Assembly: GCA_023384415.1 (NCBI GenBank)
Contig: JAHDWJ010000014.1
Coordinates: 43,943 to 107,942, forward strand
Direction of reading: 5' to 3'
From: Anaerolineae bacterium
GTDB lineage: Bacteria; Chloroflexota; Anaerolineae; Promineifilales; Promineifilaceae
Length of the DNA: 64,000 bases
How positions within the stretch are numbered: the stretch's first letter is position 1; every line of letters starts with the position of its first letter. The notes beneath the pieces were generated by a model. It searched no databases. It was given only the letters and a program-made list of their open reading frames with translations, and was not told where the DNA came from. Made by a program: the position numbers and the translations under genes. This document shows positions 5,659 through 64,000 of the stretch, piece by piece.

Positions 5659-5751
5659 GTAACTACTAAACCTTCCGAAGGCTTCCCCACTGGGGATCAT
5701 TGGCAACGAAACCTGCGGAAGGTTATATCACCTGAGAGGGTTAGTAGTTAC
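5659..5751. repeat. Family-1 hairpin element, copy A (degenerate)
   Basis: Inner palindromes AAACCTTCCGAAGGCTT (5668-5684) and GAAACCTGCGGAAGGTTAT (5708-5726), 40 nt apart. An outer 11-bp inverted repeat is present: GTAACTACTAA (5659-5669) / TTAGTAGTTAC (5741-5751). Confidence 0.7.
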
Positions 5752-6311: not shown

Positions 6312-8228
6312 TTAACGCCCGCGGCCGCGGCCATTGCCATTGCCATTATTGCCATTGCCGTTGCCATTATTGCCGTTGCCATTGCCGTTACCATTACCAT
6401 TGCCATTGCCATTGCCGTTGCCGTTACCATTATTGCCATTGCCACCGCCTCCCCCGTTATTCGGGCAGGGGCCGAGGGTATCCCCATGGGCCAGATGAGC
6501 GGAGAGCGCGGCCGCACCTACAGTTATGGTGTGAGCATTATTGGGGTTGCCTGGCGGGATGTGACAAATGGTTACCATGCCCCCATTTCCTGGTGTCGGC
6601 ATAGGCGTCATTGTTGCCGGTACGGTGGGTGTCGCCGTAATGGTTGGGGTTACGGTGATCGGTGGGGTCACTGTGATGGGTGGTGTCACCGTAATGGTCG
6701 GGGTTGGCGTAATGGTGCTGGTGGGGGTAACTGTTGGTGTACCATTGACGCATGGGCCGAGAACATCCCCATGGGCAAGATGGGCACGGACTGCGGCCGC
6801 GCCTACAGTAATCGTATGGGCATTACCCGGGTTGCCAGGTGGGTAATGGCACAATGTCACCAAACCCCCACTGCCTGGTGTTACCGTAACCGTCACCGGG
6901 ATCGTCGGCGATGGGGTGGGGGTTGGTTCGCCCGGTGGATCTGCCAGGACAATAAGAATGAGCACCACCACATTACCCGCATCATCCGTGCAGGTGATGA
7001 GCAGTACCGGTGCGCCAACAGCCGGTGTCCCTTCCAGTAGAGTCAAATCATTCAGGTTGACAACTGTGCCATTTTCCAGGGTAATTTTCTCCTCATCAAT
7101 AGCCACGATGACCGAAGCTACAGTGACACAGGTGAGATCATCGGGCTGAAAAGCTGTCGGCCCACCCGTGAAAGTGTCTCCTAAAAAGGTACCCGGCGTT
7201 CGTTCGGGACTGATGAAATCAACCAAATAATAGCCGTCAGGAGAGATATGCCCTTCCAGATAAACGGTATCACCAGTATGGATCTTTCCAGCTACCTGGG
7301 TGTCACTGTGAGTAAAAAAGGTTTGTCCGGCCAGGTAATAGCTGTCGGGTTGGACGATGACTGTCCCCTCACCAGTAACCACGAAGGCTGGAGTTTGGGG
7401 AGCTTGCCCTGAATGGACAAGGCTCATCTTACCGGCTGAAATCGCTTGTTTGCCGGTTTGTCCGCTCAGCTCTACCAGCCCTTCAACCACGCTCACTCGT
7501 GTTTGGTTGGCGGCCGCAACCATCACCGCGAAAATAGTTCCCTTGGCCGTACTGATCCCATTGGGAGTTTCCACTTCATAGACTGAGTTAGCGGCCAAAA
7601 CGTGGGCTACATCGTGGCGGGTTTCTCCCGACCCTTGAGCTAAGCGCACCACTCGCTCTCCTTGCGTAACGGTCAGTTCTGTTACCCAAAGCTCCGTATT
7701 GGGGCCGAGGTAAACCAGAGAGCCATCGGGCAAGGCCAGCAAGGCTTTGCCATTGGCCCCGGTACGAATATGTTCACCGACCTGAATAGATGTTGCCTGG
7801 GAGATGGTAGCCCAATTGCCATCGCGCTGCAGCTCAACGACCCCAGTCAGCCGGTTGAGGACTGTACTGCTGGCGACCGTCTGGCCGCGGAAATAGGCTG
7901 CGGAGCCGATAGCGGTTACTACCAGACATAGAAAGAGGAAGGCGGCGGCAAAGGAAAAGCCAATCGCCGGTAGGGCCCAACGGGGGCGGGAAGTGAGGGC
8001 AGAATTGTTGTTCATATGTTGCTCCTTTTGCACCTGTTGTATTAGCTGCATACGCTGCTGTTGCTTGATTTGGGGGTTCCGGGCCGGATATTCCATCTGG
8101 CGCAACGATGCGGCTAAAGCCAACAATTCGGCTTCTTCGGGGGGCAGCCCCTGCTGACACGCAACCAGGGGTACCCCTGTTTCTAACTGTTCTAACTGTT
8201 CCTGGAGTAATTGTTCGGGCGGTTTCAT
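6312..8228 (-). CDS. Anti-sigma factor-like membrane protein with FecR-like domain, T/P-rich linkers, two Cys/His-rich 38-aa repeats and a poly(Gly-Asn) tail
   Basis: ATGA overlap with the upstream ECF sigma gene. One TM segment (ALPAIGFSFAAAFLFLCLVVTAIG) and a FecR-like stretch (GEHIRTGANGKALLALPDGSLVYLGPNTELWV). Repeats: CHYPPGNPGNAHTITVGAAAVRAHLAHGDVLGPC and CHIPPGNPNNAHTITVGAAALSAHLAHGDTLGPC. Confidence 0.7.
   Translation of the reverse strand: MKPPEQLLQEQLEQLETGVPLVACQQGLPPEEAELLALAASLRQMEYPARNPQIKQQQRMQLIQQVQKEQHMNNNSALTSRPRWALPAIGFSFAAAFLFLCLVVTAIGSAAYFRGQTVASSTVLNRLTGVVELQRDGNWATISQATSIQVGEHIRTGANGKALLALPDGSLVYLGPNTELWVTELTVTQGERVVRLAQGSGETRHDVAHVLAANSVYEVETPNGISTAKGTIFAVMVAAANQTRVSVVEGLVELSGQTGKQAISAGKMSLVHSGQAPQTPAFVVTGEGTVIVQPDSYYLAGQTFFTHSDTQVAGKIHTGDTVYLEGHISPDGYYLVDFISPERTPGTFLGDTFTGGPTAFQPDDLTCVTVASVIVAIDEEKITLENGTVVNLNDLTLLEGTPAVGAPVLLITCTDDAGNVVVLILIVLADPPGEPTPTPSPTIPVTVTVTPGSGGLVTLCHYPPGNPGNAHTITVGAAAVRAHLAHGDVLGPCVNGTPTVTPTSTITPTPTITVTPPITVTPPITVTPTITATPTVPATMTPMPTPGNGGMVTICHIPPGNPNNAHTITVGAAALSAHLAHGDTLGPCPNNGGGGGNGNNGNGNGNGNGNGNGNGNGNGNNGNGNGNNGNGNGRGRGR
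6330..6443. repeat. Hexanucleotide microsatellite (GCCATT/GCCGTT)x~19 encoding the (Asn-Gly)n C-terminal tail
   Basis: gccattgccattgccattattgccattgccgttgcc... read directly; translated on the minus strand it gives NGNGNG... Confidence 0.85.
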
Positions 8229-16762: not shown

Positions 16763-19747
16763 ATGTATGCCGAACTGGTGATCAATATTGAGGCGGGGTT
16801 GGAAAGCACGTTTCATTATCATGTGCCGGCTGATCTGCGGCCGCGTCTCCGCATTGGTCATCTGGTTGAGGTAGAGTTTGGCCGCCGATTGGCTCAGGGA
16901 GTGGTCATCGCTTTCAGTGAAACCGCCCCGGTTGAAGAGACCAAACCGATCATCGCCCTGGTGGATGAACAGCCGGCGGTGCAGCCGTACCAAATTCGCC
17001 TGGCCCAATGGCTGCACCAGCAATACCTGGCCCCCCTCAACGGCTGCCTGCGCCTCATGCTTCCCCCTGGCCTGACCCGCTGGGCCGATACCACCCTGGC
17101 CCTCAACCCCCGTTGGGATGGCACAGGTCGCCTGACGAAGATTCAGCAGGAGTTGATTGATTTACTCAGGGAAAAAGGGGATAGACGCGGCCGCCAACTC
17201 GATAAAGCATTGGGTAGAAAATCGAATTGGAAAGCGGCCGCAACTCAACTAGTCAACCGTGATATCCTCATCAAAGGGACTATCCTCGACCCGCCCCGCG
17301 TCAAACCCAAACAAATTCGTACCGTTGAACTCATCGCCGGGCCAAAACAGATTCGAGCGGCTGCGACCCAACTTGGCCGCCCCAGCAAACAGGCGGATGT
17401 ACTGGATTATCTGCTCACCAGCGACGATCCACTGCCCCGCCTGGGCACGGTGCTGGAAGCTACTGGGGCCACCGGCAAGCATGTTGAAGAACTGATAAAG
17501 GATGGGTTGGTGACGGTCGCGGCCGCAGATAGTATCATTCTACCCACAGGTATAGCCCATGATGCCCCACCTCAATGGCAGCCCATTCTGCAACAGCTTC
17601 CTTCCAGCCGTTCCCAATTGACTCCTGACCAGTGGCAGTTAATCCTTGACCATTTGCAACCACAACATCTGGTTGAACTGATCGATCAACCCGCTTCTCT
17701 TAGCCTGGCCATCCCGCCCAAAGCCGTCTTGTCCCATATTTTTACCCTGCGTCACGCTGCTTTGTACGAAGCGATACTAAACAGGCTGCGCGGCCGCGCC
17801 CAACCCATCTCCACCACCGAACTGTACGCCGAGACCGGGGCCACCCTCAGCCATCTCAAAAAACTCATTGCCCTTGACCTCATCCGGGTTAGCCAGGAAG
17901 AAATATGGCGTGACCCCCTGGCTGACCGGGATTTCACCCCTGCCGAGGCCCCTCTGCTTACCCACGACCAGGCCCGCATCTGGGGGCGGGTGAAGGTGGC
18001 GATGTTGATGGCGATGGGGGATGAGGAAGAGGAGAGTGGGCAGTTAGCCGTGAGCAGTGGGCAGTCAGGGGAACTCGAAACTCGAAACGCGAAACGCGAA
18101 ACTCACTCCTCAACCCTCACCCCTTTTCTCTTACATGGCGTTACTGGCAGTGGCAAAACAGAAATTTACATGCGGGCGATTGAGCTGGCGATTGAGTTTG
18201 GGCAGCAGGCGATTGTCCTGGTGCCGGAGATTGCCCTGACGCCGCAGACAGTGCGCCGCTTTGCCGCCCGGTTTCCGGGGCAGGTGGCTGTTTTGCACAG
18301 CCGCCTCAGTGATGGGGAGCGGTTTGACACCTGGCGGCGGGCGCGGGCCGGCCTGTTTGACATTATTGTGGGGGCGCGGAGTGCCTTATTCACCCCGCTG
18401 CCCAACCTGGGGGTCATTGTGATTGATGAAGAGCATGATCCCAGCTACAAACAAACACCACCTGTGCCCCCTCCCTACTACCACGCTCGTGACACCGCCA
18501 TCGCCTTGGGCGAAATCGCCGGGGCGACGGTCATCATGGGTAGTGCTACCCCAGACCTGGTGACTTACCATCGGGCGCGGGCGGAACGGTATCGGTTGTT
18601 GGAACTGCCCCGCCGGGTGATGGGGCATCGTCAGCGCATTGAGAGCCAGGCGGAGCGGCTCCATTTGCAAGCCAAATATGAACAGATGGGAGATGACCCG
18701 GATGATGCTCTGACCATTCCTCTCCCGCCGGTGCAGGTGGTAGATTTGCGCCAGGAACTCCGGGCCGGCAACCGCTCTATTTTTAGCCGGGCGTTACAAA
18801 CGGCGTTGGATGAGACATTAGCGCGAGGAGAGCAGGCGATTTTGTTCCTCAACCGGCGGGGGACGCACTCTTTTGTGATTTGCCGGGATTGTGGCCTGGT
18901 GCTGAAATGCCGCCACTGTGATATGCCCCTGACCTTCCATCGGCCGCAGCTGCTGTTGGTGTGCCATTATTGCGGCCGCCGCGAGCCTCAGCCCGATGAT
19001 TGCCCCCAATGTGGCTCTAAACGCATCCGGTACTTTGGCCTGGGCACAGAAGAGTTAGAGGAGCAGGTGCAGCAGCGGTGGCCGGATGCCCGGCTGGTAC
19101 GTTGGGATCGGGACACTACCGCCGGCCGGGACAGCCATGAGCAGCTTCTGGCCAGCTTTATCAACCAGGAAGCGGATATTTTGGTCGGGACACAGATGAT
19201 CGCTAAAGGGCTGGATTTGCCCCTGGTGACGCTGGTAGGGGTTATTTCGGCCGATGTGTCGCTAGGGCTGCCTGACTACCGGACCGGGGAGCGTACTTTC
19301 CAGATTTTAACCCAGGTATCTGGCCGGGCAGGGCGGGGGCTGCTGGGGGGGCGGGTGATTGTGCAGACCTATCAGCCGGAGCATTATGCTATTGTCGCGG
19401 CCGCGTCTCACGATTACACCCAATTTTATCTAGAAGAAATCCGCTTCCGCACCCAGCACAGCCTGCCCCCCTTCCGCCGCCTGGCCCGCCTCATCATCGC
19501 CGACCCGGTAGACCAACGGGCCAAACGGCAGGCCGATGAGTTGGCTCACGGGCTGCGCGTCCACATTCGGGACAAAGCCCTGGGCGGTACCGAAATCCTC
19601 GGCCCCACCCCCCCCTTTTTCAGCCGGATAGACGGCCGCTACCGCTGGCAAATCATCATCCGCTCCCCCGATCCCATCCGCCTGCTAGAAGATTTTCCCA
19701 TCCCCCATCCCTGGGTGGTAGATATTGATCCGGTCAGTACGCTATAG
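16763..19747 (+). CDS. priA: Primosomal protein N' (replication restart helicase PriA), unusually long at 994 aa
   Basis: Walker [20 protein letters not shown] box, Cys-rich zinc region [20 protein letters not shown]...[19 protein letters not shown], and [10 protein letters not shown]. Confidence 0.9.
18037..18124 (+). repeat. Composite heptamer repeat block (E + A + B' units) in frame inside priA
   Basis: GGGCAGTTAGCCGTGAGCAGTGGGCAGTCAGGGG AACTCGA AACTCGA AACGCGA AACGCGA AACTCAC TCCTCAA CCCTCAC. 20-nt identities to 60239-60258 and 27133-27152, and a 12-nt identity to 57182-57193 (reverse complement). Confidence 0.85.
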
Positions 19748-27062: not shown

Positions 27063-27165
27063 AGTTTCGAGTTTCGAGTGATCGTATTCATAATCGAGTG
27101 GGCGAGTGGGCGAGTAGGGGAGTGAGCGAGTCACTCACTCCTCAACCCTCACTCCTCATCCCTCA
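27063..27165. repeat. Composite 7/8-mer repeat block (B + C + A units) spanning the ATPase stop codon and the permease leader
   Basis: Gene sense: GAGGGATGAGGAGTGAGGGTTGAGGAGTGAGTGA CTCGCTCACTCCCCTACTCGCCCACTCGCCCACTCGA...CACTCGAAACTCGAAACTACT ATG. Confidence 0.85.
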
Positions 27166-27835
27166 CCAGTTTCCCATCCACCAGCGTCAACATCCGGTCG
27201 GCCTGGCTGGCGATATGGGGATCATGGGTGACCAGGATAACCGTAGTGCCAAAATCATCCCGCACCTGTCGTAAAGTTGACATAACCAGTTCGCTCGCCT
27301 CAGTATTGAGATTTCCCGTTGGTTCATCGGCCAGGAGAATAGGGGGATTGTTAGCCAGGGCGCGGGCGATAGCTACCCGCTGCTGCTGACCACCAGAAAG
27401 TTGGTTTGGCCGATGGCGTAACCTGTCCCCCATGCCAAAATGGGTGAGCAGTTCGGTGGCCCGTGCCTGGGGTTTGAACTGGGGACGGTGGGCAAACTCA
27501 ACCGGCAAGGCCACATTTTCCAGGGCGTTCAGGTTGGGGATGAGGTTAAAAAATTGGAAAACAAAGCCTAACTTTTCATTTCGAATAGTCGTTAAGTCTC
27601 GTTCGTTTAGAGTGCTGATTTCTGTGCCATCCAGGACAATGCTGCCTTCATCGGCCTTATCCAAACCGCCAATGAGGCCGAGCAGGGTACTTTTCCCCCC
27701 GCCAGACGGGCCAACAATGCCGACCATTTCCCCCCGATTGATGGTGAAGGTGACATTATCAACCGCGTGGACGGTTTGTTCGCCAAGTTTAAAGGTTTTA
27801 CGCAAATCGCGTACTTCAATGATGGGTGTAGACAT
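27149..27835 (-). CDS. ABC transporter ATP-binding protein (MacB/LolD-like)
   Basis: GPSGGGKST, LSGGQQQRVAIARAL, LLADEPTGNLD. AGGAG lies upstream of ATG 27835. Confidence 0.9.
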   Translation of the reverse strand: MSTPIIEVRDLRKTFKLGEQTVHAVDNVTFTINRGEMVGIVGPSGGGKSTLLGLIGGLDKADEGSIVLDGTEISTLNERDLTTIRNEKLGFVFQFFNLIPNLNALENVALPVEFAHRPQFKPQARATELLTHFGMGDRLRHRPNQLSGGQQQRVAIARALANNPPILLADEPTGNLNTEASELVMSTLRQVRDDFGTTVILVTHDPHIASQADRMLTLVDGKLVRDEE

Positions 27836-32661: not shown

Positions 32662-33819
32662 ATGTATGAAATAGCGGCCTTGACTGAATTGTTGAAAGAA
32701 GAAGCCCGCCGGTTGGGGTTTAACCGGGTGGGGGTAATCGCGGCCGCGCCCGGTCAGCGGCTGGTGGCCTATCTGGATTGGTTGCAGCGGCAATATCATG
32801 GGGAGATGGGGTACCTGGCCCGCCCAGATAGAATAGCCCGCCGACAAGACCCGGCCCTGATTTTGCCCGGCATCCAGAGCATCGTCTGTGTAGGGCTAGA
32901 TTATTATACGGTGACGCCACCCCCGGAAATAACGGCTGATCCGGCCCGCGGCCGCATCTCCAATTATGCCTGGCAGGTAGATTACCATGAGGTGATGACC
33001 CCCCGTCTGGAGCAGTTGAGTCGCTGGCTGCAAATGATGAGCGGCCGCAACGCGGTGCAATCACGGGCCTATGTGGACACCGGGGCGATTCTAGAGCGGG
33101 ATCACGGGGAGCAGGCTGGGCTGGGATTTACCGGTAAAAACACAATGCTCATTGATCCCCGTCGGGGGTCCTGGTTTTTCCTGGGGGAGCTGCTGACCAC
33201 CATCTCCCTACAACCAGATGAGCCGAAACGGATGCCGGGCTGCGGCCGCTGCACCCGCTGCCTGACTGCCTGCCCCACCGATGCTTTCCCGGCCCCCTAC
33301 CAGCTAGATGCCCGCCGCTGTATCTCTTATCTGACCATTGAGCTAAAAGGGTGGATTCCCCGGGACCTGCGGCCGCTCATGGGGAACTGGATTTATGGCT
33401 GTGATGTGTGCCAGGACGTGTGCCCGTTTAACCGGTTTGCCCCGGAGACGGTTGAGCCTGTTTTTAAGCCGCTGGGGTGGGACGCGGCCGCGCCGCCGCT
33501 GCTAGAGCTGTTGACCTTGGATGAGGCCAGGTTCCAGACCCGGTTTGCCCACAGCCCGATCCAACGGATCAAGCGCGGCCGCTTCCTGCGTAATGTGTGT
33601 GTGGCGGTGGGCAATTGGGGGGATGCGGCCGCTGTTCCTCACCTGGCCTCTCTGCTTGCCGACTCTGACCCGCTGGTGCGGGGCCATGCCGCCTGGGCCT
33701 TGGGGCAAATAGGGGGTGAGGTGGCGCGTGATCTGTTACAGGGGAGTGCGGCCGCGGAGAGTGATCCCCATGTCCAACAGGAAATCCACCTGGCGATTCA
33801 CCCCGCGAATCACCAATAA
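32662..33819 (+). CDS. queG: tRNA epoxyqueuosine(34) reductase with C-terminal HEAT repeats
   Basis: CGRCTRCLTACPTDAF and CDVCQDVCPFNRF ferredoxin-type clusters; N-terminal GFNRVGV...YLDW. Confidence 0.9.
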   Translation: MYEIAALTELLKEEARRLGFNRVGVIAAAPGQRLVAYLDWLQRQYHGEMGYLARPDRIARRQDPALILPGIQSIVCVGLDYYTVTPPPEITADPARGRISNYAWQVDYHEVMTPRLEQLSRWLQMMSGRNAVQSRAYVDTGAILERDHGEQAGLGFTGKNTMLIDPRRGSWFFLGELLTTISLQPDEPKRMPGCGRCTRCLTACPTDAFPAPYQLDARRCISYLTIELKGWIPRDLRPLMGNWIYGCDVCQDVCPFNRFAPETVEPVFKPLGWDAAAPPLLELLTLDEARFQTRFAHSPIQRIKRGRFLRNVCVAVGNWGDAAAVPHLASLLADSDPLVRGHAAWALGQIGGEVARDLLQGSAAAESDPHVQQEIHLAIHPANHQ

Positions 33820-33844
33820 CGTAAGCAATTATGCGTGACATTCT

Positions 33845-33937
33845 CAGTAAAACGTGTAACCTTCGGAAGGTTTGGTCCAAGAGCTTGTCCATCACAGAAA
33901 CCTTCCGAAGGTTCGCCCCAACTTATTGAGAAGATAC
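33845..33937 (+). repeat. Family-1 hairpin element, copy B (93 bp)
   Basis: About 90% identical (84/93 by hand) to the reverse complement of 59101-59193. Contains AACCTTCGGAAGGTT (33858) and AACCTTCCGAAGGTT (33899), 41 nt apart. Confidence 0.85.
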
Positions 33938-33951
33938 GGTTATGCCAACTA

Positions 33952-33986
33952 AAAAGGGGCTGGATCACCTTGATCCAGCCCCTTTT
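33952..33986. terminator. Bidirectional intrinsic terminator between convergent queG and the adhesin gene
   Basis: AAAAGGGGCTGGATCA cct TGATCCAGCCCCTTTT. Confidence 0.8.
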
Positions 33987-34118
33987 CTATTGCGTCACTA
34001 TCTTTTCCATAACCGTTGGTTTATTGGTTGCACTTGTCGAAACCAACCGCCTTAGACAAGAGCGGAATCCGTTAGTTGGGAACTATTGCGAGAATAGCAG
34101 CCTATCAACCCAAGACGG

Positions 34119-50027: not shown

Positions 50028-50159
50028 TCGCCATGCTCCTTACTGTGTGGTTTTCTGTCTTGAGGATTGTCACAACGCGACATTTATTTTGTGACGTTAT
50101 GTTAGGCTAAGACCGTTGCATATTACCATAAGGGGTACACCCTGTCAAACAAACGAAAG

Positions 50160-50281
50160 GGCTATTCTCCAGAGCGGTTTTCACTGTAAATGACAGAAAC
50201 CTTCCGAAGGTTTGATTCCCTGCCAATACCGGTCAGAAAACCTTCGGAAGGTTATGATGAATAAAGGCTATTCTCCAGAGC
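50160..50281. repeat. Family-1 hairpin element, copy C, with flanking 16-nt direct repeats
   Basis: GGCTATTCTCCAGAGC occurs at 50160-50175 and 50266-50281. The second copy includes the stop codon and last codons of the acyl-CoA synthetase gene. Between them: AAACCTTCCGAAGGTTT (50197) and AAAACCTTCGGAAGGTT (50237). Confidence 0.75.
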
Positions 50282-54396: not shown

Positions 54397-56799
54397 TCAT
54401 AACAACTGGGGCAAGAGTAAGAGGAAGAGGGTGATGAGCAGACAAAAAAGTCCCGTCGCCAGGAGAACCCATAATGGCATGATCGGGGGGATTTCGATTT
54501 CTCCGACTTTGATTTGGGTGTCGCCGTGACTCGCTTTGATCTGAACGCGGAACGGGATGGTTTGAGGTTTTCCCCACAGCGGCCGCGTACTGGTCCAAAT
54601 AGTCAGGGGTAAACTACCCTGTTGGCCAGGAGCCAGCCGCAGCCGCTCAGCTTGACCAGTGAATTGGAGCGGGGTTTCGTTGTCACTGGTGCGGGCTAAT
54701 AGGGCGAAGGTGGTTTCGATGTTGCCCAGGTTATGAATCTGAACGACGCAGGGCTGCTGCGGCCGCACCTGTTCCGGGGTTAATGTGGCTGTAAAAGAGA
54801 TATTCTCCTTAATCTGTACATAACCAGTGGCTACCGTAACAATATCTGGGGCCGTCTCTGGGGAAACACGAACGATAAAGGTGCGCTGCCCTGGCTCAAC
54901 GGCCCGTTCCAGGGTGTTTAGCAAATTGATTTGCAGCACATCTTGTTCCCCCGCCTCTAAAACGAGCCGGTTTTCGGGAATGCTCACCCAGGTTGGAGGC
55001 AGCCCTTCTACCTGGAGATAAAACCGCTCGGCCATTTGCCCCTGATTGGTGATTAGCACCTGGATAAACGATTCCTGCCCTGGGGTAATTTCTACCATAG
55101 TAGGGATAAGGGTGAGATTTACCAGCGGTACAGGCAGGGGAGAAACTGGTGTCATGGGTTCGATGAGAGGAAGGAGTGAGGGCGAAAAATCAGGAACAGA
55201 AGGCTCGCTTTCCGGCATCCATCCTTCGTCACCAGTTGTCACAAGAAGTGTAGAGGGGTGGCCGAAGAGGGGAGATTCACTTTCCGTTATCCGTCCTTCG
55301 TCACCTGTCCTCACAAGGAGTGAGGATGGAGGATCAAAAAGGGTAGACTCACGTTCGGTTATCTGTCCTTCGTCACCTGGCCTTATAAGGAGTGAGGATG
55401 GCGGACCGAAGTGGGAAGGCTCACTTTCCGTCATCGTTCCTTCGTCTTTCGTCGCCAACCCAAAAGCCAGGGGGAATACCGCCCGAAATCGCTCGGCAGC
55501 GGAAATGTCTTGCTCTTGTGATGGGGGTGGGGGTAAAGGCGGGATTGACAAGGGCTGTTGATTGGGGTCAATGGGCTGCCAGCGCAAGGTGAATCCCCCT
55601 AATTGGGCTGGTTCATTGGCGGCCCAGTGATAAGGTTGACGCGGCCGCAGTCGTTCTTGACTCATCCATACCCCATTGGTGCTGTCCAGGTCTAACAAAT
55701 GCCAGCCAGTGCCGAGCCACTCAATGCGAGCATGGTAGCGAGATACGCCCTGTTCGGGCAGCGGTAAATCATTTTTCTGGCTGCGGCCAATCGTCAATAT
55801 GGGCTTATCCAAAGAGATACGCTGTTCTGGGGATCCGGTGTGGCTAATGATCAATTCGGCTGGGGAAGGGGCAACAGGTGGGGCAGACATTTTATGGCTG
55901 GTCAGCCATTCTTGAACGGATTCGCCCCCTGTTGTATCTTTACTTTTACTGACCTCGCGCAAGGCGGCCAGGAGATGGCTGGCTGATTGTAAACGATGTC
56001 CTGGCTGTTTGGCTAACCCTTTTTGCAAAATAGCAGTTACTTTTGGGGAAAGCTGAGGGCGTAGGTTTGCAGGGGGTAGGGGAACTACCTGCTGATGGTG
56101 GTAGCGGGCTTCATCCAGAGAATGGGTGATGAAAGGGGGTTGCCCGGTGATGAGATGGTATAAATTGGCGGCCAGGTTATACAGGTCAGTAGCGGGTGAT
56201 GGGGTGAACCCATCGGTTTGTTCTGGGGCGGCATAGGGCCAGAGGGAGGGAAAAGGAGTGAGTAGATGCGGGTGGCGGCCGGCCAGCAAAGACCAGACAC
56301 CGCTGTCCAGAACGGTTAATTTCCAGGGGGTATCGTCGTTATCGGAGAGGGGGATGAGCCACAAGTTGACCGGGTGGATGGCCCCGTGAATTTCGTTTTG
56401 GTGGTGGAGGTAATCGAGCGCGGCCGCGGCCTGCTGTCCCAAGGTGAGTGTATCAGCCAGGGTGATATGGGAATGGCGTGAGGCCAGCCGTTGCAGCAGA
56501 ACCGCCAGGGAGAGGCCGTCATAGGCCGGGCGCACCCAGTAGCCGGTTTGTTGGTGCCAGCCATAGGCCAGGATGGGGGCCAGGTGAGGATGATGGAGAG
56601 TCGCGGCCGCATGCCCCCACTGCCGGAATCGTTTTTCGTCTGGAGACAGATGGGGATGGAGCAGCTTGATAATGACTGTCTGGTCGGAGAGTAGGTTGCG
56701 GCCGCGGAAAACCGCTGTCACCCCACCCTCACCCAACAATTCCTGTAGCTGGTACTCGCCCAACTGTTCTCCGCTCCAATCTAACCAATTCGTGCTCAT
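54397..56799 (-). CDS. Predicted pseudokinase (degenerate Ser/Thr kinase fold) with FHA domain, 24-aa tandem repeats, Ig-like modules and a C-terminal TM anchor
   Basis: The catalytic loop reads IHGAIHPVNL instead of HRDLKPxN (Asp->Ala, Lys->His). DSG replaces DFG. The VIIK lysine and AAPE are retained. FHA: LTIGRSQKNDLPLPEQGVSRYHARIEW...DLDSTNGVW. Confidence 0.75.
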   Translation of the reverse strand: MSTNWLDWSGEQLGEYQLQELLGEGGVTAVFRGRNLLSDQTVIIKLLHPHLSPDEKRFRQWGHAAATLHHPHLAPILAYGWHQQTGYWVRPAYDGLSLAVLLQRLASRHSHITLADTLTLGQQAAAALDYLHHQNEIHGAIHPVNLWLIPLSDNDDTPWKLTVLDSGVWSLLAGRHPHLLTPFPSLWPYAAPEQTDGFTPSPATDLYNLAANLYHLITGQPPFITHSLDEARYHHQQVVPLPPANLRPQLSPKVTAILQKGLAKQPGHRLQSASHLLAALREVSKSKDTTGGESVQEWLTSHKMSAPPVAPSPAELIISHTGSPEQRISLDKPILTIGRSQKNDLPLPEQGVSRYHARIEWLGTGWHLLDLDSTNGVWMSQERLRPRQPYHWAANEPAQLGGFTLRWQPIDPNQQPLSIPPLPPPPSQEQDISAAERFRAVFPLAFGLATKDEGTMTESEPSHFGPPSSLLIRPGDEGQITERESTLFDPPSSLLVRTGDEGRITESESPLFGHPSTLLVTTGDEGWMPESEPSVPDFSPSLLPLIEPMTPVSPLPVPLVNLTLIPTMVEITPGQESFIQVLITNQGQMAERFYLQVEGLPPTWVSIPENRLVLEAGEQDVLQINLLNTLERAVEPGQRTFIVRVSPETAPDIVTVATGYVQIKENISFTATLTPEQVRPQQPCVVQIHNLGNIETTFALLARTSDNETPLQFTGQAERLRLAPGQQGSLPLTIWTSTRPLWGKPQTIPFRVQIKASHGDTQIKVGEIEIPPIMPLWVLLATGLFCLLITLFLLLLPQLL
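55204..55456. repeat. 72-bp tandem repeat, about 3.3 copies, inside the pseudokinase gene
   Basis: Encodes ESEPSHFGPPSSLLIRPGDEGQIT / ERESTLFDPPSSLLVRTGDEGRIT / ESESPLFGHPSTLLVTTGDEGWMP / ESEPS... Confidence 0.85.
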
Positions 56800-58195: not shown

Positions 58196-58210
58196 GGGTA
58201 TCTCCTGGAA

Positions 58211-58245
58211 GGATGAATTAAGAATGATGAATTATGAAGGATAAG
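58211..58245. repeat. Heptamer repeat block (GATGAAT type)
   Basis: GGATGAAT TAAGAAT GATGAAT TATGAAG GATAAG. Shares GATGAATTATGA with 60212-60223. Confidence 0.7.
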
Positions 58246-58301: not shown

Positions 58302-59093
58302 TCAAAATTCCCCTTTGCGTAAGGCTTGAATATACGGTTCATAGGCGATGGCTTGTTGGTCATTCTGGTTCAAGAGGCGGTAATAATCTTGGGCGATCTG
58401 AGCCTGCTGCTCGCGAGTATATTTGTGGTAAGGTTTGCCCTCTCGTTGGGCCTGTTTAAGCCCCTGGCTGCCCCCATATCGGTATGCTTCGTGTCCCAAT
58501 GTCCATTGAGCATGGAGGGCTTCGCCGATGTAGATAGAGCCAAGCTGCTCGTATTGATAGATGTGGGTGATTTCATGGACGAGTAAGGAAAGATCGCTGC
58601 GGCTACCTTCAGGCAGGTGAACGGTGTGCCAAAGAGCAAAAGCCCGCCCTTTGTTGGCCCGGAAAATGAAGCGCAAAACGCCCCCTTCGGCTACCCGAAT
58701 TTCTCCATAACGTAAAGCGGTTGGGCCTAAGATGGTCGCGGCCGCGTGCATTTCGGTCACGGTGAGAGGAGTAGTGGGTATGGCCAGGTGCATCACGAAT
58801 TGTACCAGTTCTGGCCCGCCGATGAGGTCAAACAGGTAACAGCCCAGGTGATGCAGGCCAAAAGTAACGCGGCCGCGCCAGGTACGTCCCCAGCCGGCTG
58901 GTTTCGGTTGGAACAGATCAGCCAATAAACGGCCCAGTCCGGTTACACCATAAACCAGCAGTCTGAGCAGGCGACCCAGCCGCACCGGTAAATCTCGCAC
59001 CAGGTTGATCGGCCACGCGGCCGCGTCTCGCAGCCGCTCTGCCAGCCACCCGGTCACCAACATTAAAACCAGGCCTATCTTAACCATAACCAC
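58302..59093 (-). CDS. DUF4157-like HExxH metallopeptidase-fold protein with hydrophobic N-terminus
   Basis: GRAFALWHTVHLPEGSRSDLSLLVHEITHIYQYEQLG resembles the DUF4157 core (...AFT.G..I.F....LLAHELTHVVQ). The start could be GTG 59093 or ATG 59087. Confidence 0.6.
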   Translation of the reverse strand: MVMVKIGLVLMLVTGWLAERLRDAAAWPINLVRDLPVRLGRLLRLLVYGVTGLGRLLADLFQPKPAGWGRTWRGRVTFGLHHLGCYLFDLIGGPELVQFVMHLAIPTTPLTVTEMHAAATILGPTALRYGEIRVAEGGVLRFIFRANKGRAFALWHTVHLPEGSRSDLSLLVHEITHIYQYEQLGSIYIGEALHAQWTLGHEAYRYGGSQGLKQAQREGKPYHKYTREQQAQIAQDYYRLLNQNDQQAIAYEPYIQALRKGEF

Positions 59094-59214
59094 CCTTACC
59101 GTATCTTCTCAATAAGTTGGGGCGAACCTTCGGAAGGTTTGGGAAATGGACAAGCTCTTGAGTCAAACCTTCCGAAGGGTACATGTTTTACTGTGATGTT
59201 ACCCCTTACCGTAT
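59093..59214. repeat. Family-1 hairpin element, copy D (59101-59193, inverted), with flanking 12-nt direct repeats
   Basis: CCCTTACCGTAT occurs at 59093-59104 and 59203-59214. The core is 84/93 identical to copy B in reverse complement. Confidence 0.8.
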
Positions 59215-59976
59215 ATTAAAGCAGCCTCGTGTTGAAGCGATTACCGTCCGCTGACTCTGGTTCATATAAGCCACCTGCCAATGGTAATCATTGGTCGTGT
59301 CCTGGTAAAAAGTTGAAACCGGCACCCGCCAGACCCATAAATTTTGCGCCGGAATAGAGAGAACATCATTATTTAGCCCTCCCAAACTGGTCAAATTGGT
59401 TGCCCCCCTGGGGCCAACCCGCACTTCTAGATAAAACCCATTGGCCGTATCTACTCGTTGCGTCCAGGTCCATTGGAACTCAATAGTGCTGCCTCGGTCA
59501 AAGGTGCTGATGTTGTTCTGGCAGTTAGTGTGATTAGCCAGGCGGGGGGCGGGAATGCCGGTTCCTGCTGTGGCAGTGGGGGATGGGGTATCGGTAGGCA
59601 GCAGGGTGGGCGATGGTTCACTCCCGGGAGTGGCCGTAATCGGGGCTTTGACCGTAGGTGTAGCTGTGGGTGGTAGTTCGGTGGGGGTAGAGGTGAATAT
59701 GGGCAGAGTGGCCGGGGCGGTCGTGGCTGTGTCCGTAGCCGGGATTGGCGAGGGGGTTGATGTTGTTTCGGCAGCCACCGTAAGTTCTGAGGTAATGTCG
59801 GCGACGGTTTCGGGGGTGAGGGATAGGGTAATGTCGCTGGTGGGAGGTTCACCAGTGCCCGTACTTTGGGTTTGGGGGTAGACCAGAAAAAAAGCGGCCG
59901 CAGCCAGAACAAGCAAACACAGGCATCCCAAAAACAAGATACCAATGATCACAAAAATAGAGCGTTTATCGTTCAT
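59206..59976 (-). CDS. Membrane-anchored T/P-rich protein with an unknown ~110-aa C-terminal domain
   Basis: TM segment IFVIIGILFLGCLCLLVLAAAAFFLV, then a Thr/Pro-rich spacer, then a Trp-rich C-terminal domain. Confidence 0.55.
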   Translation of the reverse strand: MNDKRSIFVIIGILFLGCLCLLVLAAAAFFLVYPQTQSTGTGEPPTSDITLSLTPETVADITSELTVAAETTSTPSPIPATDTATTAPATLPIFTSTPTELPPTATPTVKAPITATPGSEPSPTLLPTDTPSPTATAGTGIPAPRLANHTNCQNNISTFDRGSTIEFQWTWTQRVDTANGFYLEVRVGPRGATNLTSLGGLNNDVLSIPAQNLWVWRVPVSTFYQDTTNDYHWQVAYMNQSQRTVIASTRGCFNIR

Positions 59977-60204
59977 ACTATTACCCCCACGATTTGATTA
60001 TGGCACGTCTTTAGGGTTTTGCGGGGTTTTGTCTGATGGGGAATGCCTCTCTGTCACATTGTATGACCCCCACAAACGCCGCAAGAGCCATGGTGGCATT
60101 TTCCCACTTGTTAGCAGCCTGTATTTTTACGTAAAAACGCAGAGACGCAAATGTTGCCTGCCCTTTTCTCTGGTCAAACCTGCATAACCCGTTTAGAATC
60201 CGGT

Positions 60205-60303
60205 TATGAGGGATGAATTATGAGGGATGAAAGGGTGAGGGAACTCGAAACTCGAAACTAGAAACTAGAAACTCGGAACTAGAAACTAGAAACTCGGAAC
60301 TAA
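60205..60303 (+). repeat. Composite heptamer array (B units, then nine A units) in the muramidase gene leader
   Basis: TATGAGGGATGAATTATGAGGGATGAAAGGGTGAGG, then GAACTCG AAACTCG AAACTAG AAACTAG AAACTCG GAACTAG AAACTAG AAACTCG GAACTAA. AAGGAG and ATG 60319 follow. Confidence 0.9.
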
Positions 60304-60318
60304 ACAAGGAGTCATCTT

Positions 60319-63897: not shown

Positions 63898-64000
63898 TTA
63901 TCCTGGCAGCATGAGCAGCAGCATGATGACGGGGCTGCGGGCCAGAATGCTGTGAGGCAGATGAGGGGGCATGTGGATCCAGGTGCCGGTCGCGGCCGCG
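63898..64000 (-). CDS. 3' end of a gene running off the window (cupin-like C-terminus?)
   Basis: The minus strand reads AAATGTWIHMPPHLPHSILARSPVIMLLLMLPG*. Only 34 codons are visible. Confidence 0.3.
   Translation of the reverse strand, partial: AAATGTWIHMPPHLPHSILARSPVIMLLLMLPG

What the first reader, a model, noticed from the sequence alone, without database searches (positions are those of the whole stretch)
33845..33937. Family 1: ~90-bp intergenic elements built on two copies of the palindrome AACCTTC[C/G]GAAGGTT spaced 40-41 nt apart, with direct-repeat flanks
There are four copies, all intergenic: 5659-5751, 33845-33937, 50176-50265 and 59101-59193. Copies B (33845-33937) and D (59101-59193, inverted) are both 93 bp and about 90% identical by hand alignment (9 mismatches). 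Each copy has two 15-nt palindromes that are reverse complements of each other. An RNA or single strand could therefore form either two small hairpins or one 15-bp long-range stem enclosing about 26 nt. Copy D is flanked by the 12-nt direct repeat CCCTTACCGTAT (59093-59104 and 59203-59214). Copy C is flanked by the 16-nt direct repeat GGCTATTCTCCAGAGC (50160-50175 and 50266-50281), and the second copy of that repeat includes the stop codon and last codons of the acyl-CoA synthetase gene. Copy A has an extra 11-bp outer inverted repeat. Flanking duplications suggest insertion events (MITE-like) or recombination at the element.
Basis: seen in the sequence. Interest (0 to 1): 0.65.

Follow-up and report, generated by a model that had tools for sequence, protein, structure and literature searches.

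The report
Small hairpin transposons (MITEs) in Chloroflexota
The four ~90-100-bp palindrome-pair elements are real: they are miniature, non-coding "jumping" DNA elements (MITEs) with inverted ends and target-site duplications, an ordinary kind of selfish DNA, described here in a little-studied group of filamentous Chloroflexota.

Summary
AACCTTCSGAAGGTT occurs 8 times in 4 pairs, always 41 nt start-to-start (0.11 expected). Both direct repeats are exact, and B and D are 90.6% identical.

The window comes from a Chloroflexota genome (GCA_048500155.1) related to Ca. Trichofilum aggregatum, not from a cyanobacterium.

Homologous elements in Trichofilum and another Chloroflexota MAG show classical MITE anatomy:
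- Terminal inverted repeats start GTAA(GCG) and end (T/A)TAC.
- Target-site duplications are 8 bp. They are 8/8 or 7/8 identical in most copies, against about 2.4/8 in shifted controls.

Window copy A belongs to family "T1". B and D belong to family "T3". C is a single-copy oddity with a 16-bp repeat.

All four sit 2-15 nt after a stop codon and are absent from the orthologous Trichofilum sites.

Covariation supports the long P1:P2 stem, not two small hairpins.

GTAA(GCG) ends plus 8-bp duplications are the published hallmark of IS66-family elements, but no transposase could be looked for in the source genome.

Verdict: new members of a known kind, of low to moderate interest.

Side note: GCGGCCGC is about 55-fold over-represented in this lineage.

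The parts
5659..5751 (-). Element A (93 nt). A diverged member of MITE family T1. On the minus strand it reads GTAACTACTAA-CCCTCTCAGGTGATAT-P-N26-P-TAGTAGTTAC.
   Evidence: Aligns end to end with T1 copies of Ca. Trichofilum and Chloroflexota Go_Eff_bin_125, and similarity stops at GTAA...TTAC. Identity is 64-66/93. Most Logan contigs break inside it.
5659..5669 (+). A, terminal inverted repeat GTAACTACTAA. Its partner TTAGTAGTTAC is at 5741-5751.
   Evidence: Inverted repeat 5659-5673 / 5737-5751, 93% complementary.
5669..5683 (.). A, palindrome P1 AACCTTCCGAAGGCT (1 mismatch)
5710..5724 (.). A, palindrome P2 AACCTGCGGAAGGTT (1 mismatch)
33835..33937 (+). Element B (103 nt), MITE family T3: GTGACATTCTCAGTAAAACGTGT-P-N26-P-CGCCCCAACTTATTGAGAAGATAC
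   Evidence: Homologous over its full length to D (89%) and to L040/L105 of Go_Eff_bin_125 (75%). Seven Logan contigs from seven runs all stop at 33871.
33841..33850 (+). B, core of the left terminal inverted repeat TTCTCAGTAA. Its partner TTATTGAGAA is at 33923-33932. The full ends are GTGACAT... and ...GAGAAGATAC.
   Evidence: 90% complementary; outer stem in the fold
33858..33872 (.). B, palindrome P1 AACCTTCGGAAGGTT
33899..33913 (.). B, palindrome P2 AACCTTCCGAAGGTT
33827..33834 (+). B, left flank AATTATGC: a decayed 8-bp target-site duplication, 6/8 identical to GGTTATGC at 33938-33945
   Evidence: read; boundaries
50176..50265 (.). Element C (90 nt between the direct repeats). It has the palindrome-pair core with a T3-like 22-nt arm (GGTTTTCACTGTAAATGACAGA) and a short 12-nt arm. 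Its family is unassigned.
   Evidence: No relatives beyond the palindromes. Logan contigs read through it, so it is unique at k=31.
50160..50175 (+). C, distal copy of the 16-nt direct repeat GGCTATTCTCCAGAGC. The proximal copy at 50266-50281 is the native gene end (...SSGE, TAG, CC on the minus strand).
   Evidence: 100%. The gene end is conserved in relatives L113 and L139, which lack the element.
50198..50212 (.). C, palindrome P1 AACCTTCCGAAGGTT
50239..50253 (.). C, palindrome P2 AACCTTCGGAAGGTT
59101..59202 (-). Element D (102 nt), MITE family T3. On the minus strand it reads GTAACATCACAGTAAAACATGT-P-N26-P-CGCCCCAACTTATTGAGAAGATAC.
59093..59100 (+). D, 8-bp target-site duplication CCCTTACC (GGTAAGGG on the minus strand). 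The second copy at 59203-59210 contains the TAA stop of gene 59206-59976(-).
   Evidence: 8/8 identical, shifted controls 1-4/8. The Trichofilum ortholog ends CFNIR* with ATTCGTTAGGAC and has no element.
59125..59139 (.). D, palindrome P1 AACCTTCGGAAGGTT
59166..59180 (.). D, palindrome P2 AACCTTCCGAAGGGT (1 mismatch)

Best explanation
[quoted passage not shown] They are short, non-coding, non-autonomous DNA transposons that a transposase encoded elsewhere in the genome moves in trans.

Anatomy. Each element has terminal inverted repeats, two subterminal arms, and a central core. The core is two mutually complementary 15-16-nt palindromes (P1, P2) separated by 24-26 nt. A single strand of the element therefore folds into one long hairpin: an outer stem from the terminal repeats and an inner 16-bp P1:P2 stem.

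Insertion. The transposase makes a staggered 8-bp cut, and repair of the gaps gives the 8-bp target-site duplication.

Families. A belongs to family T1 and B and D to family T3. Both families are shared with Ca. Trichofilum aggregatum and another Chloroflexota MAG. C is a single-copy relative with an atypical 16-bp flanking repeat.

Likely transposase. The ends (GTAAGCG... in T1; GTAAC/GTGAC...(T/A)TAC in the window copies) together with the 8-bp duplication point to an IS66-family transposase.

Shown: terminal repeats, duplications, homology between genomes, absence from orthologous sites, and covariation of P1 with P2.

Inferred: genome-wide copy number, the identity of the transposase, and any role of the palindromes (for example as inner transposase-binding parts of the ends). 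In T1 and A, one palindrome directly abuts the 10-nt terminus, giving a 25-nt end within the 20-30-bp range published for IS66 ends.
For: Terminal inverted repeats:
- A is 11/11, extendable to 15 nt at 93%. B is 10 nt at 90%.
- Family alignments lose similarity exactly at GTAA...TTAC (T1) and at GTrAC...GATAC (T3).

Target-site duplications:
- 8/8: L008, L050b, L145, L148 (T1); L040, L105 and window D (T3); and a 159-nt T1-ended variant in L101.
- 7/8: L034, L048, L085, L101, L146.
- Shifted controls average about 2.4/8.
- Window B is 6/8.

Mobility:
- No palindrome pair is found in 21.8 kb, 21 kb and 10.5 kb of syntenic Trichofilum DNA, including all four orthologous intergenic regions.
- The native gene ends that make up the proximal repeat copies of C and D are conserved in relatives that lack the elements.

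Multi-copy status:
- Logan k=31 contigs from many runs end at fixed bases inside A, B and D.
- At D the break falls exactly where the 43-nt block shared with B predicts, which validates this reasoning.
- B's left break and A's break require further near-identical copies elsewhere in the genome.

Structure:
- All four fold through the P1:P2 stem, and the fold is significantly more stable than shuffles on at least one strand of each copy (best z -5.2, -4.8, -3.5, -2.2).
- The long P1:P2 stem has 4 pairs and 8 cells with compensatory double changes, including the centre C-G/G-C swap (0/500 shuffles). The two local hairpins show no excess (419/500).

IS66 hallmark:
[quoted passage not shown] 8-bp DRs' (PMC11946415).

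Negative results consistent with this reading:
- No Rfam family matches.
- No terminator-like site is called at the elements.
Against: - No transposase is encoded in the window or in the 10 kb beyond it. No autonomous element with matching ends was found in about 0.4 Mb of related Chloroflexota loci. The IS66 assignment therefore rests only on the end sequence and the duplication length.
- B starts GTGA rather than GTAA. A has no recognisable duplication (3/8).
- C has a 16-bp repeat, no convincing terminal inverted repeat and no family relatives.
- Only 4 copies were seen directly, in 74 kb. Genome-wide copy number was not measured.
- No presence/absence polymorphism was found among the sampled strains.
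- A third family in the related MAG (T2) has different ends flanked by TA, yet carries the same palindrome core. A simple view of the core as part of IS66-type ends does not explain this.
Confidence: 0.82

Rival explanations
1. REP/REPIN-type elements. Each palindrome would be a REP hairpin, the inverted pair a REPIN, and a RAYT (IS200/IS605-like tyrosine transposase) would spread them as single-stranded hairpins.
For: - Inverted pairs of short palindromes lie downstream of genes.
- The long-hairpin fold is supported by covariation.
- In Ignavibacteriota and Bacteroidota MAGs the same 15-mer occurs in clusters of alternating orientation without recognisable outer arms, much like BIME/REP clusters.
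Against: - REPs are defined by a GTAG or CGTC tag at one end (PMC3733652). The palindromes here have neither.
- REPINs make no target-site duplication, whereas these families show 8-bp duplications and terminal inverted repeats outside the palindromes.
- No Y1/RAYT gene is found in the window or next to the palindrome clusters examined in other phyla.
Confidence: 0.05
2. The palindrome-pair core is an independent functional or mobile module. It could be a host- or transposase-factor binding site, or a stabilising 3'-UTR RNA hairpin. On this view it was captured by, or recombined into, several unrelated MITE backbones, and selection on this module rather than transposition explains its conservation.
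For: - The core (P, 26-27 nt, P) is far better conserved than the arms or termini across families T1, T2, T3 and A-D.
- Family T2 has TA-flanked, IS630-like ends but the same core, and its spacer resembles that of T1 (GGTACA next to P2).
- T3-type ends also occur around a different hairpin core, at L085 6219-6319.
- All four window copies lie 2-15 nt after a stop codon and would be transcribed as 3' ends.
- Spacing is fixed at 41 nt in the window even though the spacers are unrelated.
Against: - There is no expression data.
- No T-tract or terminator call is found at the elements, and no Rfam family matches.
- The elements are not conserved at orthologous sites.
- Modular, chimeric MITEs and recombination at shared 15-17-mers would give the same picture without any function.
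- Position after stop codons can result from purifying selection in a compact genome.
Confidence: 0.1
3. IS200/IS605-derived palindrome-associated elements (PATEs). The two palindromes would be the left- and right-end hairpins recognised by a TnpA Y1 transposase.
For: There are two similar subterminal hairpins, with conserved arms of about 10-27 nt outside them.
Against: By established knowledge of the family, IS200/IS605 elements have no terminal inverted repeats, make no target duplication, and insert 3' of a fixed tetra- or pentanucleotide. Here terminal repeats and 8-bp duplications of variable sequence are seen. Covariation links P1 with P2 rather than the arms of each hairpin.
Confidence: 0.02
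4. Conserved cis-regulatory sites: a paired operator for a dimeric DNA-binding protein, or a structured regulatory RNA belonging to the neighbouring genes.
For: There are two palindromic sites with centres 41 bp apart, about four helical turns.
Against: - The neighbouring genes are unrelated: NifU/Rieske, QueG/Calx-beta, acyl-CoA synthetase/Roadblock, and hypothetical genes.
- The elements lie downstream of genes, in one case between convergent genes.
- They are absent at orthologous sites.
- Rfam gives no match.
Confidence: 0.01

Closest known systems
IS66-family insertion sequences and their non-autonomous derivatives
   Same: - The T1 relatives start with the family's signature heptamer GTAAGCG.
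- Window copies A and D start GTAAC and end TTAC or ATAC.
- Target duplications are 8 bp, as published for IS66 (PMC11946415).
- In T1 and A, one end (10-nt terminus plus palindrome, 25 nt) falls within the published 20-30-bp length of IS66 ends.
   Different: - The elements have no coding capacity (93-103 nt, against 1.3-3 kb for the insertion sequences).
- No TnpA/TnpB/TnpC partner was found.
- B begins GTGA.
- The palindromic subterminal core is not a described IS66 feature, as far as I know.
Classical bacterial MITEs, e.g. MITEPsy1 of Pseudomonas syringae (100 nt, 18-nt terminal repeats, 4-nt duplication; PMC3189936)
   Same: - Size is about 100 nt.
- They have terminal inverted repeats and a target-site duplication, and are mostly intergenic.
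- They fold into a long hairpin.
- They are lineage-restricted and multi-copy, and are presumed to be mobilised in trans.
   Different: - The termini and the duplication length (8 nt) differ.
- Several families with different termini share one strongly conserved double-palindrome core.
- Mobility has not been shown experimentally here.
REP / BIME / REPIN elements mobilised by RAYTs (PMC3733652)
   Same: They are short palindromes in inverted pairs, lie downstream of genes, and form a long hairpin maintained by compensatory change.
   Different: There is no GTAG or CGTC tag. Terminal inverted repeats lie outside the palindromes. 8-bp target duplications are present. No RAYT was found.
IS630/Tc1-mariner-type MITEs (TA duplication)
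   Same: Family T2 of the related MAG (ends TAGACATTATCGGCAAT, flanked by TA) carries the same palindrome core.
   Different: None of the four window copies has these ends or TA flanks.

Membership tests
MITE (generic) | Short (<~300 bp) and non-coding | tested here: met
   The elements are 90-103 nt and lie in intergenic DNA between annotated genes.
MITE (generic) | Terminal inverted repeats | tested here: met
   - A: 11/11.
- B: 10 nt at 90%, within roughly 16-nt imperfect ends.
- D: 11/15 by eye.
- The families align up to GTAA...TTAC or ...GATAC.
- C: not convincing.
MITE (generic) | Target-site duplication of fixed length flanking the termini | tested here: met
   The duplication is 8 bp. 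D is 8/8 and B is 6/8. Among relatives, 7 copies are 8/8 and 5 are 7/8, against about 2.4/8 in shifted controls. A is 3/8 (decayed). C has 16 bp (atypical).
MITE (generic) | Multiple dispersed copies in the genome | tested here: inconclusive
   Four copies were seen in 74 kb. Contig breaks at fixed bases imply further near-identical A-type and B-type copies.
MITE (generic) | Insertion polymorphism: absent at orthologous sites in relatives | tested here: met
   All four orthologous Trichofilum intergenic regions lack the elements. L139 lacks C. The regions are diverged, so a clean empty site can be inferred only for C and D. No polymorphism was seen among conspecific strains.
MITE (generic) | An autonomous element with the same termini in the same genome | not testable with these tools
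   The source genome cannot be searched. None was found in the window or in the fetched related loci.
IS66-family derivative | Terminal repeat starting GTAAGCG (family ends GTAA) | tested here: inconclusive
   T1 relatives start GTAAGCGTTCAG, an exact match. Window A starts GTAACTA, D starts GTAACAT, and B starts GTGACAT. The right ends are GTTAC or GATAC. The definition is taken from PMC11946415.
IS66-family derivative | 8-bp target duplication | tested here: met
IS66-family derivative | Mobilised by a TnpC-type DDE transposase (with TnpA/TnpB) present in the genome | not testable with these tools
REP/REPIN-RAYT | GTAG or CGTC tetranucleotide tag at one end of the palindrome | tested here: not met
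   The palindrome and its immediate flanks (for example acgtgtAACCTTCGGAAGGTTtgg) carry no such tag. The definition is from PMC3733652.
REP/REPIN-RAYT | No target duplication; RAYT gene flanked by the repeats | tested here: not met
   8-bp duplications are present. No Y1 transposase is found in the window or near the palindrome clusters of other phyla.
IS200/IS605 PATE | No terminal inverted repeats, no target duplication, and insertion 3' of a fixed short motif | tested here: not met
   Terminal repeats and duplications of variable sequence are present.
Known RNA families (Rfam 15) | Covariance-model match at gathering score | tested here: not met
   There are 0 matches in the window. Across 18 related loci there are no matches at the elements.
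Intrinsic terminator | GC-rich hairpin followed by a T-run | tested here: not met
   No terminator-like site is called at any of the four elements.

The most novel reading that the evidence does not exclude
The double-palindrome core (AACCTTCSGAAGGTT, 26-27 nt, and its reverse complement) may be a portable module in its own right. It could be the binding site of a still unidentified dimeric protein, either a transposase accessory or a host factor. Alternatively it could be a tiny REPIN-like mobile hairpin that has colonised MITE backbones with unrelated ends: IS66-like ends with 8-bp duplications and IS630-like ends with TA. On this reading the same module also exists on its own in Ignavibacteriota and Bacteroidota genomes.
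Probability: 0.1. Interest if true: 0.55.

Novelty: new member of a known kind. Interest (0 to 1): 0.27.

Why it matters
These are ordinary selfish elements, so the biological surprise is small. They still matter in four practical ways:

1. They appear to be undescribed MITE families of filamentous, wastewater-type Chloroflexota (relatives of Ca. Trichofilum). They break short-read assemblies at fixed positions.
2. They insert within a few bases of stop codons, duplicating the gene's last codons. This can mislead gene-end annotation and may alter 3'-end or operon structure. D splits two formerly adjacent genes and carries an outward-facing -35-like hexamer.
3. IS66-type MITEs are rarely documented. 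A palindromic subterminal core shared by families with different termini gives a testable handle on what the transposase or its accessory proteins bind.
4. They are useful strain and lineage markers.

Tried and rejected
Searches that led nowhere:
- Genome-collection scan. The pattern CCTTCSGAAGG-N24-36-CCTTCSGAAGG was too loose. It did, by luck, bring in the related Chloroflexota MAG loci that revealed the MITE anatomy.
- Strict metagenome scan: 0 hits. A looser scan gave 12 loci and a few more T1 copies.
- Literature search for the palindrome sequence itself: only unrelated primer hits.
- Search for an autonomous partner. No lone or distant terminal-repeat pairs around a transposase were found, and no multi-copy ORFs were found among the Chloroflexota loci.
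- Strain polymorphism. Every Logan contig carrying the flanking genes either contains the element or breaks in it.
- Extending the window by 10 kb found no new copy. One look-up failed because I chose the wrong start codon.

Ideas rejected:
- Cyanobacterial origin. I assumed this at first from the heptamer repeats and the abundant octamer palindrome. Protein homologs show Chloroflexota.
- Rfam families and intrinsic terminators.
- RAYT association. Pfam scans of the genes next to palindrome clusters in L058, L061 and L103 found none.
- Variable 12- or 16-bp duplications as a sign of retro- or microhomology-mediated insertion. Rejected for D, because the family end ...GATAC and the 8-bp rule explain it. 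Still open for C.

Full report
**1. The observation**

The palindrome AACCTTCSGAAGGTT (up to 2 mismatches) occurs 8 times in the window against 0.11 expected. It forms four pairs, each exactly 41 nt start-to-start: 5669/5710 (A), 33858/33899 (B), 50198/50239 (C) and 59125/59166 (D). In B and C the two palindromes, extended by one base, are perfect 16-nt inverted repeats with 24 nt between them. B(+) and D(-) are 90.6% identical over 96 nt. A and C share only the palindromes and the spacing with them. The 16-nt repeat around C, the 12-nt repeat around D and the 11-nt outer inverted repeat of A are all exact. All four copies lie between genes.

**2. Origin of the window**

The window is part of contig JASNYM010000001.1 (1.47 Mb) of NCBI assembly GCA_048500155.1. 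Its proteins are closest to Chloroflexota/Anaerolineae MAG proteins. The nearest named relative is Ca. Trichofilum aggregatum (GCA_016716885.1). Gene order is conserved, and amino-acid identity is 77% for QueG, 88% for GyrA and 87% for acyl-CoA synthetase. My first guess of a cyanobacterium, based on heptamer repeats and an abundant octamer palindrome, was wrong.

**3. Anatomy, from related copies**

My loose genome-collection scan was a planning mistake. It did, however, bring in loci from Ca. Trichofilum and from Chloroflexota MAG Go_Eff_bin_125 that carry the same palindrome pairs at 41-42 nt spacing. Reading their flanks and aligning them gives three families.

- **T1.** GTAAGCGTTCAG-TCCCTCTGGTGAAAC-P-N27-P-GAACGGTTAC, 94 nt, with 12-nt terminal inverted repeats. 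Window A on its minus strand aligns with T1 from GTAA to TTAC and not beyond. Identity is 64-66/93, including the arm CCCTCT..GGTGA and the spacer TCGTT...CCAGTGG.
- **T3.** GTAACCTCTCAATAAAGTGCGG-P-N26-P-TGCCCCGGAATATTGAGAAGATAC, 102 nt. Window B (33835-33937) and D (59101-59202, minus strand) are members, at 75% identity to L040/L105 and 89% to each other.
- **T2.** Ends TAGACATTATCGGCAAT flanked by TA, with the same palindrome core. No window copy belongs to T2.

C has a T3-like 22-nt arm (TCACTGTAAA against TCACAGTAAA) but only 12 nt on the other side. It has no relatives among the held sequences.

**4. Target-site duplications**

I compared the 8 nt on either side of the termini (supplemented).

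- Identical 8/8: T1 copies L008, L050b, L145, L148; T3 copies L040, L105 and window D; and a 159-nt T1-ended variant in L101.
- 7/8: L034, L048, L085, L101, L146.
- Other cases: one copy has a 9-bp duplication (L036), one tandem copy has an outer 8/8 duplication (L097), and two or three copies show none.
- Shifted controls average about 2.4/8.
- Window B is 6/8 (AATTATGC/GGTTATGC). Window A is 3/8.

ATAC is the conserved right terminus of the family (...GAGAAGATAC in B, L040 and L105) and also happens to precede the target. Chance for 4 nt is about 1/256 per site.

The 16-nt repeat of C does not fit the 8-bp rule. Its proximal copy is the native gene end: relatives end GGCTCTGGCGAATAACC (L139) or GGTTCGGCTGAATAACC (Trichofilum) and lack the element. 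The distal copy is therefore a true duplication, but I cannot explain its length.

**5. Evidence for insertion**

None of the syntenic Trichofilum loci contains a palindrome pair. These are L113 (21.8 kb), L119 (21 kb) and L158 (10.5 kb). The orthologous intergenic regions of all four sites carry other sequence.

At D the upstream gene ends CFNIR* in both genomes, ATACGGTAAGGG against ATTCGTTAGGAC. In the window the second duplication copy runs straight into the start of the next gene. The two genes were therefore almost contiguous before the insertion.

All four elements lie 2-15 nt after a stop codon. I read this as purifying selection in short intergenic spaces, although a target preference is not excluded.

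Model R1 finds only these four copies in the 74 kb of source genome available.

**6. Copy number (inferred)**

Logan contigs (k=31) from many sequencing runs that carry the flanking genes stop at fixed bases.

- Left of B they stop at 33871, in 7 runs.
- At D they start at 59127 or 59129.
- At A they start at 5714 or 5712 in most runs, while two runs read through.

The D break is exactly where the 43-nt block shared by B and D ends plus 30 nt, which validates the reasoning. B's left arm differs from D's at three positions, so its break requires at least a third B-like copy. A's break requires another copy with the same spacer. Contigs read through C in every run, with identical sequence, so C is unique. 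No strain lacking an element was found.

**7. Structure**

On at least one strand, each element folds as one long hairpin through the P1:P2 stem significantly more stably than shuffled sequence does (best z -5.2 to -2.2). On an alignment of 22 cores, the 16-pair long-range stem is 95.5% paired. It has 4 pairs and 8 cells with changes on both sides, including the central C-G/G-C exchange (0/500 shuffles reach this). The two local 6-bp hairpins show no excess (1 cell, 419/500).

So what is maintained is the inverted-repeat relation of P1 to P2, not the self-complementarity of each palindrome. This may act on DNA, as paired binding sites or arm-to-arm conversion, or on a folded single strand. I cannot say which.

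In T1 and A, one palindrome directly abuts the 10-nt terminus (GTAACCGTTC-AGCCTTCCGAAGGTT; GTAACTACTA-AACCTTCCGAAGGCT). That makes a 25-nt end, within the 20-30-bp length published for IS66 ends. This suggests, but does not show, that the palindrome is the inner, protein-binding part of the end.

**8. Which transposase?**

IS66-family elements have 20-30-bp ends that start GTAAGCG and make 8-bp duplications (PMC11946415). T1 matches this exactly. A and D begin GTAAC and B begins GTGAC. I therefore propose mobilisation by an IS66-family transposase, with about 0.5-0.6 confidence for this sub-claim.

No transposase gene is present in the window, in the 10 kb beyond it, or among the related loci. 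The source genome could not be searched.

**9. Rivals**

- REP/REPIN-RAYT fails on the defining GTAG/CGTC tag (PMC3733652), on the presence of duplications, and on the absence of any Y1 transposase.
- IS200/IS605-type elements fail on the terminal repeats and duplications.
- No Rfam family matches, and no terminator-like site is called at the elements.
- A conserved regulatory site is excluded by absence at orthologous sites and by the unrelated neighbouring genes.

**10. What remains odd**

- The palindrome core is much better conserved than the termini. It is shared by families with IS66-like and TA-flanked ends, while T3-type ends also enclose a different hairpin core. This could reflect modular recombination at the shared 15-17-mers, or a module with its own function or mobility. 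I rate the second possibility at about 0.1.
- The same 15-mer occurs in inverted pairs or clusters in Ignavibacteriota and Bacteroidota MAGs. My search pattern selected for the 11-nt core, so part of this is ascertainment. The AA/TT extension was not imposed by the pattern.
- C's 16-bp repeat is unexplained.

**11. Verdict**

These are real, non-random MITEs, new members of a known kind. Interest is low to moderate.

The 55-fold excess of GCGGCCGC across this lineage, noticed in passing, may deserve its own look more than this finding does.

Noticed in passing
whole window (e.g. 366-373, 33242-33755, 63992-63999); also L113, L116, L119 and the Go_Eff_bin_125 loci: The octamer palindrome GCGGCCGC (a NotI site) occurs 119 times in 64 kb (1.86/kb) against 2.2 expected, mostly inside genes. 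The next most frequent 8-mer palindrome occurs 11 times. The density is similar (1.1-2.0/kb) in Ca. Trichofilum and two other related Chloroflexota genomes, while cyanobacterial HIP1 (GCGATCGC) is absent. This looks like a HIP1-type 'highly iterated palindrome' outside cyanobacteria. I found no paper in the searchable library that mentions it.
   Followed up: partly
18069-18134, 27133-27180, 58204-58242, 60204-60309; L125 ends; L139 2010-2038; L158 ~3260-3300: Intergenic regions of this genome and its relatives contain short tandem heptamer repeats (GGGAACTCGAAACTCGAAAC..., ACTCCTCAACCCTCACTCC..., GATGAATTATGAAGGAT...). They resemble cyanobacterial STRR sequences and end many short-read contigs.
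   Followed up: no
L113 11850-11905 and L113 2150-2290 (Ca. Trichofilum sites orthologous to C and D): At the sites orthologous to C and D, the sister genus carries other hairpin-rich inserts. One has T1-like ends (GTTACGTTAAGGC...GCTTTAACGCTAAC) around a different core hairpin. The short gene-3' intergenic spaces seem to be recurrent landing sites for different MITEs.
   Followed up: partly
L022 1841-1944, L071 3401-3505, L076 7329-7433, L084 2633-2735, L108 5715-5818 (Chloroflexota Go_Eff_bin_125; boundaries approximate): MITE family T2 has ends TAGACATTATCGGCAAT flanked by TA, like IS630/mariner elements. It contains the same palindrome-pair core as the GTAA-ended families, which suggests modular or chimeric MITEs.
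   Followed up: partly
L085 6219-6319; L101 4476-4635; L022 2276-2630; L048 4584-4636: Elements with T3- or T1-type termini and 8-bp duplications have other cores: a GTCGAAA...TTTCGAC hairpin, G-rich repeats of 159-355 nt, or a 53-nt mini-element. The same ends therefore mobilise several different cargoes.
   Followed up: partly
L103 3292-3483, L058 2112-2511, L061 4598-5605, and single pairs in L017, L023, L032, L041, L047, L049, L052, L056, L090, L094: Ignavibacteriota, Bacteroidota and Chlorobi MAGs carry the same 15-mer AACCTTCSGAAGGTT in inverted pairs (spacing 18, 34-37 or 41) or in clusters of alternating orientation. They have no obvious outer arms, so they look REP/BIME-like. One pair lies between a TPP riboswitch and its gene (L056). 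The neighbouring genes are ordinary and no RAYT was found. The ascertainment is partly biased by my search pattern.
   Followed up: partly
L004 2877-3277 and many Alistipes/Coprenecus loci (L013, L029, L030, L063, L066...): These loci hold tandem arrays with a 117-nt period, each unit containing two CACCTTCCGAAGGTG palindromes 39 nt apart. This is a different, unexplained repeat of gut Bacteroidales.
   Followed up: no
33946-33988: A long perfect hairpin flanked by A- and T-runs (AAAAAGGGGCTGGATCACCTTGATCCAGCCCCTTTT) lies between the convergent QueG and Calx-beta genes, just beyond element B. It looks like a bidirectional intrinsic terminator. The simple scan did not call it, because only four T follow the stem and the scan requires five.
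   Followed up: no
50120-50148 (minus strand): A promoter-like site (TTGACA, 17 nt, TG-n-TAATAT) lies upstream of the Roadblock/LC7 gene, within a block conserved nearly base for base with Ca. Trichofilum. Element C sits between this block and the stop codon of the upstream gene.
   Followed up: no
59083-59112 (minus strand): The right end of element D supplies an outward-facing -35-like hexamer (TTGAGA). Together with TATGGT 18 nt downstream it forms a weak promoter-like site facing gene 58302-59087. The match is only 9/12, and its function is untested.
   Followed up: no
6327-6449, 6465-6895 and 55171-55446: There are in-frame coding repeats: GCCATT/GCCGTT hexamer runs and a 285-nt duplication in the FecR-domain protein, and three 72-nt repeats in the kinase/FHA protein.
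   Followed up: no
59206-59976 (minus) versus 59555-59881 (plus): The public gene calls for this assembly list a 108-aa plus-strand ORF here. The 256-aa minus-strand ORF has a called ortholog with the same C-terminus (CFNIR*) in Ca. Trichofilum. The deposited annotation is probably wrong at this locus.
   Followed up: partly
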